A stretch of DNA of 64,000 nt from a virus (IMGVR_UViG_3300033145_002015:26600-90599), one strand, 5' to 3'; positions 44,124 through 64,000 are shown, counted from the stretch's first letter. The notes: a model not told the origin generated them from the sequence alone. Translations and numbers: made by a program.

Positions 44124-45194
44124 TTAAACCGTTGTTGTGGTAGTCGTGGAACTCGTCGTGGTTGTAGTTGTTGTGGTTGTTTGTCGATAACTATACTCCA
44201 CACATAGCTTTGATCTCTTCTCCGAATCTCCGGCTCTGATCGAATAGAATTCCCGCAATGCTCCAAGGGTACTACCATTATCTTCCAGGATAAGCATTAC
44301 GTCTCCCACCCCGGGCCAGTCCGGCCTGTCGATTACTTCTTGGAGCGAGGCAGATAGATCAGGAGACACGTATTCATTGCCGGCACCCCATCCTTGAATG
44401 TTAGTCCATTCAATCGTTTCCGATGTCATTTTCAGATTATCCAATTCTACTTTGGACGTAGGATTGACGGGGGAAGCCGTATCATTAAACCCACACTTCA
44501 CATTCACGAATACGGGCGTTCTGGTTCCGTACGCAGTAAAATATGCCCTGGCACTTTCGATTACGGAACCTCTGGGGATATTAAGATTTCGATATCGTAT
44601 ATACGCTCGATTTTTAGATGATGAGAAATCTCCAAAATCAATATAATCCAATTCGAGAGAAGCGTCCTGTGGATCGCCATCTGGACGGGAATATATAGCG
44701 AAACCGATGTAATACAAATTTGAAGATAAGCCATAATCCGATAGAACCAGAATTTGCTCTTCGCCTCCATTATCGGTTATGGTGTAATCTTCCGATGGAC
44801 TATAGATTGCATTTTTTGCGATCAGAAACGATACCCAAGTATCATCGATATCCATTAAAAACATTTCAATGGCTGTGGGAGAATTAGAAGAATCTGAAGA
44901 AATAGAGGCCCTCATTTTGATTTTCATGTGGGGACCTGTTGTATAATTATCTACAGGACTTCCATCATTCCATTCCCAATAGGTGATATTATCCTGAACA
45001 GCACTGCCGTCATGAATAGTGCGTAAGCGAACAGAGCTTATAGTAGAATCAAAATCAACAGAATGAGAATATCCAGAACCGGATACAACATACGGCACTG
45101 TCGGACATGCCTCCGCAGTAAGACCAACTGTAAACCGCCAAGAATGGCCTGCATCACATATTCCGGTCGCCCAAGGTTCCCACATATTTAACAT
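44124..45194 (-). CDS. accessory virion protein with DNRLRE/CBM-like domain and poly-Thr tail
   Basis: RAYIRYRNLNIPRGSVIESA..SPDLSASLQEVIDRPDW; ends QTTTTTTTTTSSTTTTTTV. Confidence 0.65.
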   Translation of the reverse strand: MLNMWEPWATGICDAGHSWRFTVGLTAEACPTVPYVVSGSGYSHSVDFDSTISSVRLRTIHDGSAVQDNITYWEWNDGSPVDNYTTGPHMKIKMRASISSDSSNSPTAIEMFLMDIDDTWVSFLIAKNAIYSPSEDYTITDNGGEEQILVLSDYGLSSNLYYIGFAIYSRPDGDPQDASLELDYIDFGDFSSSKNRAYIRYRNLNIPRGSVIESARAYFTAYGTRTPVFVNVKCGFNDTASPVNPTSKVELDNLKMTSETIEWTNIQGWGAGNEYVSPDLSASLQEVIDRPDWPGVGDVMLILEDNGSTLGALREFYSIRAGDSEKRSKLCVEYSYRQTTTTTTTTTSSTTTTTTV

Positions 45195-45237
45195 CTCCCA
45201 GTTGTACTGTTGATAATATCACCGCCACAAAAACTCC

Positions 45238-46527
45238 CTATACTGTTGTCGTAGTAGTTGAACTGCTACTGGTAGTAGTCGAACTACTCGTAGTGGTAAA
45301 TGACGACGATGTGGTCGAGGAGCTGGTCATAGTAGATGTCGTGGTAGTAGACAATGTCATAGTCGTTGTAGAAGTAGTAGTCGTTGTAGAGGTAGTAGTC
45401 GTTGTCGAGGTGGTAGTTGCCATGAAAATATCAAAATAAGGAGATTCTCGATCATTTTCATAGTCAGCTTCTCCAATTCCCCGATAACTCATAGTCGCCC
45501 ACGAATCTGAGATCAACCCTATTGGGCTGTTAGGGAGTAGAGTGACCTTCCAAAAGTACCATTTAGTGTTGGGGCCTTCTGGATTGTCGGAAATAAACTT
45601 AAGGCAATATCTTTTAGATGGTGCCATATTGGCGTAGATTACATTTGGGTTGGGCCTGGTTCCCCGCACGAAACGAGCCAGATTATCAGAAGAAAATTCA
45701 TCAAGAGTGAATTGAAGCGTATAATCCATCTTGAGGATTACGCTATCGCCCACCACTAAACCGCCTGACCTCGACAGATAGCTTTTTATTTCTTCAGAAG
45801 ATACCACTACATTGAGATCCGTACAATTGCCGACATCAGAAAATGCAGGAGCTGTGTATGTAAGATCGAAACCAAGCGGAGGCCAATAGACGAAACTTGA
45901 TGCCCCGAAATTTATGGTTACGCCATTTCTATCGGAACCTTCTCCACTAATATGAATAGCCGGATAAATATCTTCCGATATACCAGACAGATCAAATGCT
46001 TCTAGTGTTCCTTCTGCAGGATTTCCATTGATTTGCCACTCTCCATTTTTGGAGAACCAAACCTGTTTAGTATCAGCATCGTAAGCCACCCCGATGACAT
46101 CCCCATCAGTATAGGAATATGACAGATACGGGTCCGGCTGTGTATAAGAAGCGTTGTATGCCAAAGTGCCGTTTGACCAATAACCACAAGAATTGGCGTC
46201 AACCCCTAATTTGGCAGCTAAATTGGCATTTCTGGTCGCGTAACCTATACCGATAGTATCTACACCTAAAGCGCCCCCGGTTTCATTGATCGTGACTTCC
46301 CAATAGAATTTTCCCGAAGATACTGTATTCTGCGCCAGAACGACGCCGACTCCGCCGGTAAGATCTATATGTTGAACCTTAAGGCCACCCGCAATCAATT
46401 GCAGCTTGGGACTCATATAGTTTTCGTCCAAAAGCTGCGTTGCCATCGAATCCGTCCAGTTGGCAATGTAGAGGACACCTCTCCCTAAGGTATATAATTC
46501 ATAGCTTGGACTTCTGGGGATTGTCAT
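45238..46527 (-). CDS. second tail tube paralogue with SPRY/B30.2 insertion and about 60-aa Thr/Ser tail
   Basis: shares LYTLGRG, DVGNC and FxSDNPxGPN..FW.V.L with 61253-61819; SPRY motifs GKFYWEV..IG, GDVIGVAYD..VWFSKNG..YPA. Confidence 0.8.
   Translation of the reverse strand: MTIPRSPSYELYTLGRGVLYIANWTDSMATQLLDENYMSPKLQLIAGGLKVQHIDLTGGVGVVLAQNTVSSGKFYWEVTINETGGALGVDTIGIGYATRNANLAAKLGVDANSCGYWSNGTLAYNASYTQPDPYLSYSYTDGDVIGVAYDADTKQVWFSKNGEWQINGNPAEGTLEAFDLSGISEDIYPAIHISGEGSDRNGVTINFGASSFVYWPPLGFDLTYTAPAFSDVGNCTDLNVVVSSEEIKSYLSRSGGLVVGDSVILKMDYTLQFTLDEFSSDNLARFVRGTRPNPNVIYANMAPSKRYCLKFISDNPEGPNTKWYFWKVTLLPNSPIGLISDSWATMSYRGIGEADYENDRESPYFDIFMATTTSTTTTTSTTTTTSTTTMTLSTTTTSTMTSSSTTSSSFTTTSSSTTTSSSSTTTTTV
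46390..46403. repeat. dispersed palindrome copy 9 (CGCAATCAATTGCA)
   Basis: inside a CDS, read as LQLIA. Confidence 0.9.
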
Positions 46528-47540
46528 GACGAGGTTCTCCTGACCGTAATGGAAGCCGAGGCCGATTCATATACATATCCACTATCTTCAATGTAGTTAC
46601 TCAAATAGAACGTGATTTCTTCAGCCAAAGTGCCATTATCGGAGATATTCATATCTTCTGAGTACGTCCAGGTCAAGGCATCGATGCCAGTAACAGTTCT
46701 GACATCGCTTCCATTCACATAGACTTGTACCTTGAAATAACCTTCCCAAGAAGGGGGATAATCAATCACTTCTAAAGCATCGTCAGTCGAATAAGCAATA
46801 CCAAGCCCGGCACCTTGTTTCCGCACCCGCGGGGACCAAGTAAGAATAATATCTTGACTATATGTAGGATGGACGCCACCGCCATTGGCCTTTAGATTCA
46901 ACACTTGGTATGGAGTCATTGATCTTCCAGTAAAAGTTTTCTTTATGACTTTTGCAGAAGTAATACTGGCGGAGGCCATCTGAGTGTAGGGAACAAACTT
47001 AAAGTAGCGAACAGCTCCTCTCAAAATCGATTCTTCGTTCAGCACAGAAAAACAATCTTTATCCAAAAACCAAAAATGCTCTCCCCGCGAATGGAAGACT
47101 TTCGTCGTATCGAAACGCGCCCGATATACTCCCAAGATTTTAGCTATGTTTTCGGTGATTGGAATGAAATGCTGAAAGGAAATAATTTCGGAGCCGAGCA
47201 ATGCCATATTATATCCTGCCAACATTTCGGATCGAGTGATAGACTCGATCAAATCAGCTCCATATGTAAATCTGACTATAAAGCCCACATCATCGTCAAT
47301 TGTGAATGTATTACTCGTATAGTTCTCAAACAGAATCCCATGCGGTTGAAAATAATCGAATTTATCCAATCGATTATAAGTCGATCCGTCCAGACTCAAA
47401 TATAAATCATATCCACGCTCCTCCCCAGATACCTTGGCAGCCAACGGGATTATTTTATGCGGAGCACCGGACAAGACGTACGGCGCTTCCAAGATATCTA
47501 CATAGGATAGATTTGATACTATGAGATTTCTGCTTCCCAT
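46524..47540 (-). CDS. tail tip protein resembling the C-terminal half of GTA-type host-specificity/hub proteins
   Basis: NMALLGSEIISF..VYRARFDT..H..GEHFWFL and IILTWSPRVR motifs. Confidence 0.55.
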   Translation of the reverse strand: MGSRNLIVSNLSYVDILEAPYVLSGAPHKIIPLAAKVSGEERGYDLYLSLDGSTYNRLDKFDYFQPHGILFENYTSNTFTIDDDVGFIVRFTYGADLIESITRSEMLAGYNMALLGSEIISFQHFIPITENIAKILGVYRARFDTTKVFHSRGEHFWFLDKDCFSVLNEESILRGAVRYFKFVPYTQMASASITSAKVIKKTFTGRSMTPYQVLNLKANGGGVHPTYSQDIILTWSPRVRKQGAGLGIAYSTDDALEVIDYPPSWEGYFKVQVYVNGSDVRTVTGIDALTWTYSEDMNISDNGTLAEEITFYLSNYIEDSGYVYESASASITVRRTSS

Positions 47541-63182: not shown

Positions 63183-63863
63183 TCACGCAGTCGTAGTCGT
63201 TGTAGTGGTGGATGTGGTAGTGGTCGTTGTGGTTGTGGTCGTAGTTACCACCTCAATTCGATCACTATAAGCAGCGGCCTGGCGATCATCATAGCTATCT
63301 ACCCTGCGAAGCCTTATCTGTGCAAGGTAAGGCTTCATCCGCAAGGCGATGACGGACGTAGCCAGCAGATTTTTATCACTCAGCAGAAATTCAAGCTGAG
63401 GTCTGGGTTGATCGGACTCTAACGTAACCGACAGCGAAGCAATCCTAAAACTACGTACTCTTCGAGGACTGGCCGCATCGTCCATCCCTTCCGGCGGATA
63501 TAGCGGAGCAATAATTGAAGCGGCGATCAACACCTGCGTTTCCTTAACCACATCAGGAATGATCGTCCGATCATATTGCACCGTGCGAGGGAATGCCATC
63601 GACTGTTCTTCATATCCTTCAGACAAGATGGAACCATCTGTGTCATATAAAGGATAATACATCCGATTGACCTTCCTCCCGCGGAGAGGCAGACGATCAA
63701 GAGCAGCGGCTGCAAGGATTAAACAATACTCCTTCGCCGCATCGGACAGCGCATCCCACGCAGCAGTATCGTAATGCGCTTGCCCTGCAATTGAATTCGC
63801 CTCTTCCAAGGAGACGTAGCTGTTGGATCTGGGTCCCCCGACCGTCGTAATTAGCGCCATCAA
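63183..63863 (-). CDS. head-tail connector (gp6/gp15-like, DnaT_2-type) with poly-Thr tail
   Basis: GGPRSNSYVSLEEA..Q.MAFPR..IPDVVKETQ; ends VTTTTTTTTTTTSTTTTTTTA. Confidence 0.75.
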   Translation of the reverse strand: MMALITTVGGPRSNSYVSLEEANSIAGQAHYDTAAWDALSDAAKEYCLILAAAALDRLPLRGRKVNRMYYPLYDTDGSILSEGYEEQSMAFPRTVQYDRTIIPDVVKETQVLIAASIIAPLYPPEGMDDAASPRRVRSFRIASLSVTLESDQPRPQLEFLLSDKNLLATSVIALRMKPYLAQIRLRRVDSYDDRQAAAYSDRIEVVTTTTTTTTTTTSTTTTTTTA

Positions 63864-63871
63864 TCAACCCA

Positions 63872-64000
63872 TTATGCAGTAGTAGTCGTTGTACTACTGG
63901 TCGTACTGCTGCTACTGGTCGTACTACTGGTCGTACTGCTGCTACTGGTCGTACTGCTGCTACTGGTCGTACTACTGGTCGTACTGCTGCTACTGGTCGT
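63872..64000 (-). CDS. 3' end of a truncated head-module gene; only its Ser/Thr tail is visible
   Basis: the 42 codons before TAA read TTSSSSTTSSTTSSSSTTSSSSTTSSTTSSSSTTSSTTTTTA; built from 12/18-nt tandem units. Confidence 0.7.
   Translation of the reverse strand, partial: TTSSSSTTSSTTSSSSTTSSSSTTSSTTSSSSTTSSTTTTTA

What the first reader, a model, noticed from the sequence alone, without database searches (positions are those of the whole stretch)
44124..64000. Six structural genes share a C-terminal Thr/Ser tail ending TTTTT[A/V]-stop; two more have internal tracts
Seen: C-terminal tails at 44130-44180 (ends V), 45241-45417 (V), 47546-47737 (A), 61259-61294 (A, tail tube), 63189-63245 (A, head-tail connector) and 63878-64000 (A, truncated head gene). 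Internal tracts lie at 49272-49364 and about 55280-55340. Most tracts mix ACT/ACC/ACA/ACG codons, which argues for protein-level selection rather than slippage; only the 63878-64000 tract is a near-perfect 12/18-nt tandem repeat. No replication or metabolic gene has such a tail. Inference: a portable modification tag, with a conserved terminal small hydrophobic residue that could be a recognition element. If the truncated gene is the capsid or a decoration protein, hundreds of copies would cover the head.
Basis: partly seen in the sequence, partly recalled or inferred. Interest (0 to 1): 0.85.

Follow-up and report, generated by a model that had tools for sequence, protein, structure and literature searches.

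The report
Poly-threonine sugar-tag tails on phage virions
An uncultured tailed phage ends its outward-facing particle proteins in runs of threonine and carries a sugar-adding gene cluster next to them, including an enzyme shaped like the animal enzymes that start mucin coats, so it probably sugar-coats its own particle, though no sugar has been measured.

Summary
Five complete late genes and one gene cut by the contig end finish in Thr/Ser tails of 12 to about 64 residues. None of 49 non-structural genes does. Codons are mixed as in the rest of the genome.

The tails are a family trait. All 120 tail-tube homologues and 56 of 56 IMG/VR relatives at 42% identity or more carry one. They sit only on certain protein families: tail tube, two unrelated capsid families, lambda gpD-like decoration, Ad1 adaptor and distal tail proteins. 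They never sit on tape measure, protease or tail completion proteins.

The tails travel with a glycan cassette at 37068-44099. One enzyme (37068-38009) matches polypeptide GalNAc-transferases (GT27) best, by profile and by fold. Eight further genomes with other virion modules carry this cassette and also have tails. Two complete tailed genomes lack the GT27-like gene but keep the GT4-like gene. Relatives without the cassette have no tails.

The terminal Ala/Val is not conserved across the family, although it agrees within genomes.

Glycosylation is inferred, not shown. This is a new variant of the virion glycosylation known from mycobacteriophages. Other notes of this scan reached the same reading on this same genome.

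The parts
63875..64000 (-). 3' end of a gene cut by the contig end: at least 41 S/T residues, then Ala and stop. By synteny it is the capsid protein or a small head protein.
   Evidence: Translation. Perfect 48-nt tandem repeat at 63894-64000. Relatives place a tailed HK97-type capsid gene upstream of the adaptor.
63183..63863 (-). Head-tail adaptor (Ad1 type) with a 19-residue poly-Thr tail ending in Ala (63189-63245).
   Evidence: phrog_477 E 3.4e-16. 16 of 25 orthologues in relatives are tailed.
61253..61819 (-). Major tail tube protein with a 12-residue Thr tail ending in Ala (61259-61294).
   Evidence: phrog_807 E 1.8e-29. 120 of 120 database homologues and 56 of 56 loci at 42% identity or more are tailed. 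More distant relatives carry an Ig-like domain at that end instead.
54196..55905 (-). Distal tail protein with a short internal Thr/Pro linker near 55290-55340. This is the weakest tract.
   Evidence: phrog_1082 and Laminin_G_3. Sequence context. Some orthologues in relatives carry C-terminal tails instead.
49068..52301 (-). Large tail protein with an internal S/T tract (49272-49364) before a 67-aa C-terminal piece.
   Evidence: phrog_1101 E 2.4e-71 and F5/8 type C domain. Tract.
47543..48001 (-). 152-aa protein: an 88-aa domain plus a 64-aa S/T tail ending in Ala.
   Evidence: Degenerate 18-nt periodicity. No family match.
45238..46527 (-). Tail tube paralogue with a SPRY domain inserted and an S/T tail of about 59 aa ending in Val.
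   Evidence: 41% identity to the tail tube over 139 aa, E 4e-37. SPRY E 1.2e-12.
44124..45194 (-). 356-aa late protein of unknown family with a 17-residue S/T tail ending in Val (44130-44180). It is the last tailed gene, 24 nt upstream of the first glycosyltransferase.
   Evidence: Relatives also place a tailed gene directly before the GT4-like gene.
42837..44099 (-). GT4-like (GT-B fold) glycosyltransferase. It is the one enzyme found in every tail-bearing genome that could be assessed.
   Evidence: Weak Glycos_transf_1 match. Fold closest to BshA/MshA. Orthologues at 26-55% identity in relatives.
42172..42849 (-). GT2-like glycosyltransferase (weak match).
   Evidence: PF00535 E 8.8e-4, below the curated cut-off. 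Homologues in some cassette-bearing genomes.
41051..42175 (-). Second GT-B (group 1) glycosyltransferase.
   Evidence: PF00534 E 6.3e-5, just below the cut-off. Conserved in 7 of 8 other cassette-bearing genomes.
40521..41087 (-). Methyltransferase (Methyltransf_24, weakly like rhamnosyl O-methyltransferase/CmcI).
   Evidence: PF13578 E 9.8e-14. The same family sits in the alternative cassette of G062.
39934..40578 (-). Class I SAM methyltransferase.
   Evidence: PF13489 E 1.4e-9. Conserved in 7 of 8 other cassette-bearing genomes.
39170..39937 (-). Sulfotransferase-like protein (weak match).
   Evidence: PF00685 E 1.8e-3, below the cut-off. A clear sulfotransferase (PF13469 E 7e-8) sits in the G062 cassette.
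38445..39194 (-). 249-aa protein, probably a divergent GT-A glycosyltransferase. It always accompanies the GT27-like gene.
   Evidence: No Pfam or PHROG match. Atlas structure neighbours are GT2/GT25-like, TM 0.71-0.83, a lead only. Present in all 8 other cassette-bearing genomes.
37068..38009 (-). 313-aa soluble glycosyltransferase resembling the catalytic domain of polypeptide GalNAc-transferases (GT27). Candidate initiating enzyme.
   Evidence: Family profile hits ppGalNAc-Ts best in the PDB, E 4e-6, with the DxH, GGEN and His motifs aligned. Model pLDDT 94. The Foldseek top 50 are all ppGalNAc-Ts, E 1e-16. VIA Z 26.7 and 25.1 against 19.8 for the next family.

Best explanation
The Thr/Ser tails are unstructured, mucin-like acceptor tags on the outward-facing ends of virion proteins: capsid or decoration protein, adaptor, tail tube and distal tail proteins.

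Proposed course of events:
1. During late infection the phage's own cytoplasmic glycosylation cassette (37068-44099) O-glycosylates the tails.
2. The soluble GT27-like enzyme (37068-38009) most likely puts the first sugar on threonine, as animal polypeptide GalNAc-transferases do on mucins.
3. The GT4-like enzyme (42837-44099), the only glycosyltransferase shared by all tailed genomes examined, either extends the glycan or is itself the initiator.
4. The remaining GT-A/GT-B enzymes extend the glycan. The two methyltransferases, and perhaps a sulfotransferase, cap it.
5. The assembled particle then carries a dense glycan brush.

What is shown: the tails, their selection at the protein level, their restriction to particular virion protein families, their co-occurrence with the cassette, and the fold and motifs of the enzyme.

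What is inferred: that sugars are attached, which enzyme starts, which sugar is used, and the benefit. Possible benefits are shielding, colloidal stability or adhesion.
For: Protein-level selection:
- Thr codons are mixed in genome-typical proportions.
- Every one of 120 tail-tube homologues keeps a tail, but of very variable length (2 to about 30 residues) and composition (1105 T to 193 S).

Specific placement:
- Tailed: tail tube 55/58, HK97-type capsid 22/24, adaptor 16/25, gpD-like decoration 10/10, a 144-aa head protein 17/17.
- Never tailed: tape measure 0/32, protease 0/24, three tail-completion families 0/25-26.

Surface position:
- More distant tail tubes carry an Ig-like domain at the same C-terminus.
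- C-termini of T7-type capsid proteins and of lambda gpD are used for surface display (my knowledge).

Link to the cassette:
- The GT4-like gene occurs in all 12 assessable tailed relatives. The GT27-like gene occurs in 9 of these. Neither occurs in the 8 chi-like outgroup genomes.
- Eight further genomes with different capsid and tail modules carry the cassette, and all have 2-5 tailed proteins, including a phrog_29-type capsid.
- There are no real tails in about 650 ORFs of relatives lacking the GT27-like gene.
- (ACN)10-TAA is rare: 78 stretches in 2.9 million viral contigs.

Enzyme. It has no membrane anchor and no lectin domain, which fits action in the bacterial cytoplasm.

Synteny: a tailed gene lies directly before the GT4-like gene here and in relatives.
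Against: - No glycan has been observed; everything rests on sequence.
- Two complete tailed genomes (G062, G073) lack the GT27-like gene. They carry another cassette: GT4-like, a Nucleotid_trans GT-A, an epimerase, an O-methyltransferase and a sulfotransferase. GT27-like is therefore not required.
- One complete relative (G004) has a GT4-like gene but no tails. That gene is therefore not sufficient.
- The genomes compared share replication genes, so they are not fully independent lineages.
- GT-A fold similarity does not prove a peptide acceptor.
- Several cassette assignments are below Pfam cut-offs.
- Host and habitat are unknown.
Confidence: 0.7

Rival explanations
1. The tails are glycosylated, but the GT4-like enzyme starts the glycan. 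This would parallel the GT4 enzyme GtfA, which O-GlcNAcylates serine-rich repeat adhesins in the cytoplasm of Gram-positive bacteria. The GT27-like enzyme would then only extend or diversify the glycan.
For: The GT4-like gene is in every tailed genome that could be assessed, including G062 and G073, which have no GT27-like gene. It always lies directly after a tailed gene. Its fold is GT4.
Against: G004 has the GT4-like gene but no tails. Its nearest structures are small-molecule GT4 enzymes (BshA, MshA), not protein glycosyltransferases. The GT27-like enzyme's closest structures all act on Thr/Ser of peptides.
Confidence: 0.25
2. The tails are not modified. They act as hydrophilic, disordered bristles or spacers on the particle. 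The neighbouring cassette modifies something else, such as the host envelope or phage DNA.
For: Poly-Thr is itself hydrophilic and disordered. No sugar has been measured. G004 shows that the GT4-like gene can exist without tails.
Against: Tails and cassette co-occur across different virion modules. Cassette-less relatives have no tails. The best structural match is to enzymes whose substrates are exactly such Thr-rich tracts. The cassette is packed tightly behind the last tailed gene.
Confidence: 0.15
3. The tails are recognised by a host glycosylation or other host system, or are by-products of slippage-prone ACN repeats with no function.
For: The tail of the cut gene is a perfect 48-nt tandem repeat, and the long tails keep an 18-nt periodicity. 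Tail length varies widely between relatives.
Against: Short tails have fully mixed codons. Tails are kept in 176 of 176 tail tubes and sit only on certain protein families. Neutral slippage would neither hold them at exact C-termini nor exclude other genes.
Confidence: 0.05

Closest known systems
Virion glycosylation of mycobacteriophages Che8, Corndog and Myrna (Freeman et al. 2023, Cell Host Microbe, PMID 37329881). The paper is not held in the library; it is cited through PMC11600133 and PMC12582341, and its details are from my memory of the abstract.
   Same: Phage-encoded glycosyltransferases, with an O-methyltransferase in Corndog, modify the C-termini of capsid and tail tube subunits with O-linked glycans.
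   Different: - Che8 and Corndog capsid and tail tube proteins end in short ...TGS...DGS...VGS and ...GDS, not in poly-Thr tracts.
- Neither the GT27-like nor the GT4-like enzyme has a BLAST match in mycobacteriophages. Among 50,697 cultured phage records there is one 24% hit, in Tunturiibacter phage Tunturi_4, which has no tails.
- Here more proteins are tagged: adaptor, decoration protein and distal tail.
- The nearest cultured relatives by tail tube and polymerase infect proteobacteria, at 39% identity or less.
Eukaryotic mucin-type O-glycosylation started by polypeptide GalNAc-transferases (CAZy GT27)
   Same: The acceptor is a dense Thr/Ser tract. The phage enzyme shares the GT-A catalytic domain with the DxH, GGEN and downstream His motifs, and GT27 enzymes are its best structural match.
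   Different: - The phage enzyme has no ricin-type lectin domain, no membrane anchor and no Golgi context. It has 313 residues against about 500-630.
- Sequence identity is 13-17%.
- Donor sugar and acceptor are untested.
Serine-rich repeat adhesins glycosylated by GtfA/GtfB (GT4) in Gram-positive bacteria (from my knowledge)
   Same: Long Ser/Thr repeats are glycosylated in the cytoplasm by a GT4 enzyme and then extended by further glycosyltransferases encoded in the same locus.
   Different: Those targets are exported adhesins with an accessory Sec system. Here the targets are virion proteins. The phage GT4-like enzyme showed no specific similarity to GtfA.
Ig-like decoration domains on phage tail tubes and capsids
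   Same: They occupy the same C-terminal position on tail tubes of more distant relatives (phrog_807 'major tail protein with Ig-like domain').
   Different: An Ig-like domain is a folded domain that is thought to bind glycans. The poly-Thr tail is disordered and would itself carry glycans.

Membership tests
Mycobacteriophage-type virion glycosylation (Freeman et al. 2023) | Glycosyltransferase genes encoded by the phage itself | tested here: met
   GT cassette at 37068-44099.
Mycobacteriophage-type virion glycosylation (Freeman et al. 2023) | Targets are the C-termini of capsid and tail tube subunits | tested here: met
   The tail tube is tailed in the window. Capsid proteins are tailed in 22 of 24 relatives. 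The window's own capsid gene is not in the window.
Mycobacteriophage-type virion glycosylation (Freeman et al. 2023) | Same acceptor motif and homologous enzymes | tested here: not met
   Che8 and Corndog proteins end in ...GS or ...DS, not poly-Thr. tblastn finds no mycobacteriophage match for either enzyme.
Mycobacteriophage-type virion glycosylation (Freeman et al. 2023) | O-linked glycans demonstrated on virions | not testable with these tools
   Needs mass spectrometry of particles.
CAZy GT27 polypeptide GalNAc-transferases | GT-A catalytic domain with a DxH metal-binding motif | tested here: met
   Invariant D103, H105 and C106 align with FLDAHC of GalNAc-Ts. Fold Z 26.7 over 285 of 313 residues.
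CAZy GT27 polypeptide GalNAc-transferases | Gal/GalNAc-T motif (WGGEN) and downstream metal-binding His | tested here: met
   Invariant G204, G205 and E206 (with N210) align with WGGEN, and H230/H231 align with the GH of GalNAc-Ts.
CAZy GT27 polypeptide GalNAc-transferases | C-terminal ricin-type lectin domain and type II membrane anchor | tested here: not met
   The protein has 313 aa, starts with the first beta strand and ends after the catalytic domain. Matches cover only the catalytic part of the 500-aa enzymes.
CAZy GT27 polypeptide GalNAc-transferases | Transfers GalNAc from UDP-GalNAc to Ser/Thr of peptides | not testable with these tools
   Needs an enzyme assay.
GtfA/GtfB-type glycosylation of serine-rich repeat proteins | GT4-family (GT-B) initiating enzyme | tested here: inconclusive
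   The fold is GT4 (BshA and MshA top), but there is no specific similarity to GtfA and no GtfB-like partner was sought.

The most novel reading that the evidence does not exclude
A horizontally mobile, phage-borne mucin-type O-glycosylation system. It consists of short genetic tags (poly-Thr tails) that can be put on any outward-facing virion protein, plus a soluble enzyme like polypeptide GalNAc-transferase and a variable glycan-tailoring cassette. Together they give many uncultured environmental phages a glycocalyx. This would be a prokaryotic-virus counterpart, and possibly a relative, of the machinery that starts animal mucin glycosylation.
Probability: 0.5. Interest if true: 0.85.

Novelty: new variant of a known kind. 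Interest (0 to 1): 0.75.

Why it matters
Particle glycosylation in phages is so far documented only for some actinobacteriophages. As I recall the abstract of that report, it found little sign of it in other phages.

Here hundreds of metagenomic contigs share a simple sequence signature: poly-Thr C-termini on capsid, decoration, adaptor, tail tube and fibre proteins, together with a dedicated glycan cassette. These contigs include several complete 60-100 kb genomes with different virion modules.

If the tails are glycosylated:
- Phage glycocalyces are widespread in nature and can be predicted from sequence.
- They use an enzyme class otherwise typical of animal mucin synthesis.
- They offer a compact, transferable tag-and-enzyme pair for decorating protein assemblies.

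It would also raise the question of what such a coat does outside an animal host. Possibilities are protection from proteases or grazers, reduced sticking to particles, or adhesion to polysaccharide matrices.

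Tried and rejected
- Extending the contig to identify the cut gene failed.
  - An exact 40-mer from 63800-63839 is absent from viral contigs and metagenome contigs.
  - No whole genome is held.
  - Offsets in earlier notes imply that the contig ends exactly at window base 64000, because 26599 + 64000 equals the 90599-bp contig length.
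- A single-protein scan of viral contigs found nothing. An alignment-based scan was needed.
- Genome contigs gave only two distant, tail-less relatives, in MAGs of Roseateles and Lysobacterales. This gave no host assignment.
- No tRNAs were found.
- Tunturiibacter phage Tunturi_4, the only cultured phage with a hit to the GT27-like enzyme (24% identity), has no tails.
- phmmer of the GT4-like and GT1-like proteins against the PDB gave nothing useful.
- Promoter and terminator scans were at chance level and say nothing about co-transcription.
- No DGR-type repeat was found near the Mtd-like gene.
- Literature searches for poly-threonine or mucin-like tags on phage particles found no prior description in the held library. 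This is not proof that none exists.
- I rejected the idea that GT27-like is the universal partner of the tails, because of G062 and G073.
- I rejected the idea that GT4-like is sufficient for tails, because of G004.

Full report
**What the window is.** All long ORFs lie on the minus strand.
- The stretch 44124-64000 is the tail and head-tail joining module of a siphovirus.
  - Ad1-type adaptor at 63183-63863 (phrog_477).
  - HK97 gp10-like protein at 62271-62795.
  - Tail tube at 61253-61819 (phrog_807).
  - Tape measure at 55909-60528 (PF10145).
  - Distal tail proteins of the GTA/phiJL001 kind (DUF2460, BR0599/Gp84, NlpC/P60).
  - Large tail proteins (phrog_1101).
- Directly downstream, with overlapping or nearly abutting genes, lies a glycan cassette at 37068-44099.
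  - It holds a GT4-like, a GT2-like and a GT1-like gene.
  - It also holds two methyltransferases, a weak sulfotransferase-like gene and a probable GT-A protein.
  - Its last gene is a GT2/GT27-like gene.
- No whole genome is held.
- The protein database puts the tail tube on a 90,599-bp contig.

**The observation.**
- They are 12 to about 64 residues long and end in five Thr followed by Ala or Val and the stop codon.
- The internal tract in 49068-52301 is real. The one in 54196-55905 is only a short Thr/Pro linker.
- Thr codon use inside the tails matches the genome's overall use. Selection therefore acts on the protein, not on a DNA repeat.
- Tandem Repeats Finder shows a perfect 48-nt repeat in the cut gene's tail. 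It also shows decayed 18-nt periodicity in the two long tails, so the tails lengthen by duplication.
- None of the 49 other genes has a tail.

**Relatives.** The tail tube has more than 250 database homologues at 56-70% identity.
- All 120 listed end in a Thr-rich tail of very variable length.
- An alignment-based scan of IMG/VR gave 80 loci.
- Every tail tube at 42% identity or more (56 loci) is tailed.
- The 39% relative and the chi-like phages are not tailed. The chi-like phages carry an Ig-like domain at that end instead.
- I clustered the neighbouring genes of the 57 in-clade loci. Tails are confined to particular orthologous groups.

| Protein family | Tailed / total |
|---|---|
| Tail tube | 55/58 |
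| HK97-type capsid (PF05065, phrog_1623) | 22/24 |
| Ad1 adaptor | 16/25 |
| Lambda gpD-like decoration (PF02924) | 10/10 |
| 144-aa head protein (phrog_673) | 17/17 |
| Tape measure | 0/32 |
| Protease | 0/24 |
| Three small tail-completion families | 0/25-26 each |

- In the sub-group whose capsid is lambda gpE-like (0 of 20 tailed), the tail sits on the decoration protein instead.
- The tag therefore follows the outer surface of the particle, not a protein lineage.

**The terminal residue.** It is not conserved across the family.
- Among the 120 homologues the last residue is T in 52, A in 23, V in 22 and P in 11.
- Within a genome the caps agree more than chance allows. 40% of pairs are identical against 17% expected, and 0 of 5000 permutations reach that. 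Examples are AA/A/AA/AA, V/V/V/I and AP/AP.
- This may reflect co-evolution with the cognate enzyme or homogenisation between tails. I could not separate the two.

**The enzymes: GT27-like.** The true product of 37068-38009 is 313 aa, with more than 840 homologues.
- A profile of 25 members hits polypeptide GalNAc-transferases best in the PDB, at E 4e-6 to 7e-4. The DxH, GGEN and His motifs align, and these residues are invariant in the family.
- The AlphaFold model is confident (pLDDT 94).
- The Foldseek top 50 are all ppGalNAc-Ts, with E about 1e-16 and TM 0.65-0.77.
- A Foldseek-independent search gives Z 26.7 and 25.1 (283-285 residues aligned) for the two GT27 representatives. The next GT-A family reaches Z 19.8 with 228 residues.
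- The protein lacks the lectin domain and membrane anchor of the animal enzymes.

**The enzymes: GT4-like.** The protein from 42837-44099 folds like retaining GT4 enzymes such as BshA and MshA.

**Co-occurrence.**
- The GT4-like gene is present in all 12 tailed relatives long enough to judge. The GT27-like gene is present in 9 of them. Neither is present in the 8 chi-like outgroup genomes.
- Searching from the GT27-like family gave 62 further loci. Most of those contigs lack this tail tube family.
- I read eight such complete or near-complete genomes in full. They share little with the window beyond the cassette and a few replication or tape-measure genes. All of them have 2-5 S/T-tailed or S/T-rich-ended proteins, including a different capsid family (phrog_29) and a minor tail protein (phrog_290).
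- About 650 ORFs of relatives lacking the GT27-like gene contain no real tail. The single regex hit lies on a fragment of an in-clade contig.

**The reverse test.** (ACN)10-TAA occurs in only 78 stretches of 2.9 million viral contigs.
- About a third of these are tiny spurious ORFs. Thirteen are this tail tube family.
- Two complete multi-tailed genomes found this way are G062 (83 kb, five real tails) and G073 (87 kb, eight tails). Both have the GT4-like gene directly after a tailed gene.
- Both also carry a Nucleotid_trans GT-A, a sugar epimerase/dehydratase, an O-methyltransferase and a sulfotransferase. Neither has a GT27-like gene.
- Conversely, the complete relative G004 has a GT4-like gene but no tails and no GT27-like gene.
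- So tails always come with a glycan cassette that includes the GT4-like gene. The GT27-like gene is common but replaceable, and which enzyme starts the glycan stays open.
- In G039 the contig starts inside the cassette, so its GT4-like status cannot be judged.

**Comparison with the known case.** Mycobacteriophages glycosylate the capsid and tail tube C-termini with their own enzymes (Freeman et al. 2023, cited in PMC11600133 and PMC12582341; the paper itself is not held).
- Che8 and Corndog proteins end in ...GS or ...DS rather than poly-Thr.
- Their enzymes are not detectably related to those here.
- The nearest cultured relatives by tail tube and DNA polymerase are proteobacterial phages at 39% identity or less. 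The host is unknown.

**Verdict.**
- The 'portable tag' idea is strongly supported.
- 'Modification' is a well-founded inference.
- The 'conserved terminal residue' idea does not hold across the family.
- Earlier notes of this scan on the same genome (e1-5947911, e1-5947910) reached the same reading. I tested the GT27 claim independently.

Noticed in passing
window 45238-46527: A second tail-tube-like gene among the distal tail genes. It has 41% identity to the tail tube, with a roughly 200-aa SPRY domain inserted after residue 25 and the second-longest S/T tail. G001 has a shorter tailed homologue (33% identity).
   Followed up: partly
window 63894-64000 (contig end): The contig appears to end inside a perfect 48-nt tandem repeat that encodes the S/T tail. 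The assembly probably broke there.
   Followed up: partly
window 34138-35385: A protein with an Mtd second domain (PF21916, E 4e-23), as in receptor-binding proteins targeted by diversity-generating retroelements. No template-like direct repeat was found within 32000-37100.
   Followed up: partly
window 27571-29274 and 32276-32629: The portal gene (PF04860) lies about 35 kb from the adaptor and tail genes, beside the DNA polymerase. An S-adenosylmethionine decarboxylase gene (PF02675, E 1e-33) lies at 32276-32629.
   Followed up: no
L023, L026 and similar loci (IMG/VR relatives): In relatives with a lambda gpE-like capsid, the capsid protein has no tail. The gpD-like decoration protein (10/10) and a 144-aa head protein (17/17) carry it instead.
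   Followed up: yes
G050 (L182-L185) and G056 (L186-L188): In two smaller cassette-bearing genomes (62 and 52 kb), the S/T tracts sit on very large proteins (669-1574 aa). They are capped by Pro-rich ends (PPP, APP, IIP) rather than ending the protein cleanly.
   Followed up: no
G010 (contig of L016), 41842-43101: The GT4-like gene of this relative contains one in-frame TAG.
   Followed up: no
G004 (L086-L090), 26518-27840: This complete 92-kb relative has direct terminal repeats, a GT4-like gene next to hexapeptide-repeat acetyltransferase-like genes, and no poly-Thr tails. Its GT4-like gene may have another target.
   Followed up: partly
L103 (Tunturiibacter phage Tunturi_4), 1567-2565: This is the only cultured phage with a distant homologue (24% identity) of the GT27-like enzyme. 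The gene lies between the terminase and portal genes, and its virion proteins have no S/T tails.
   Followed up: yes
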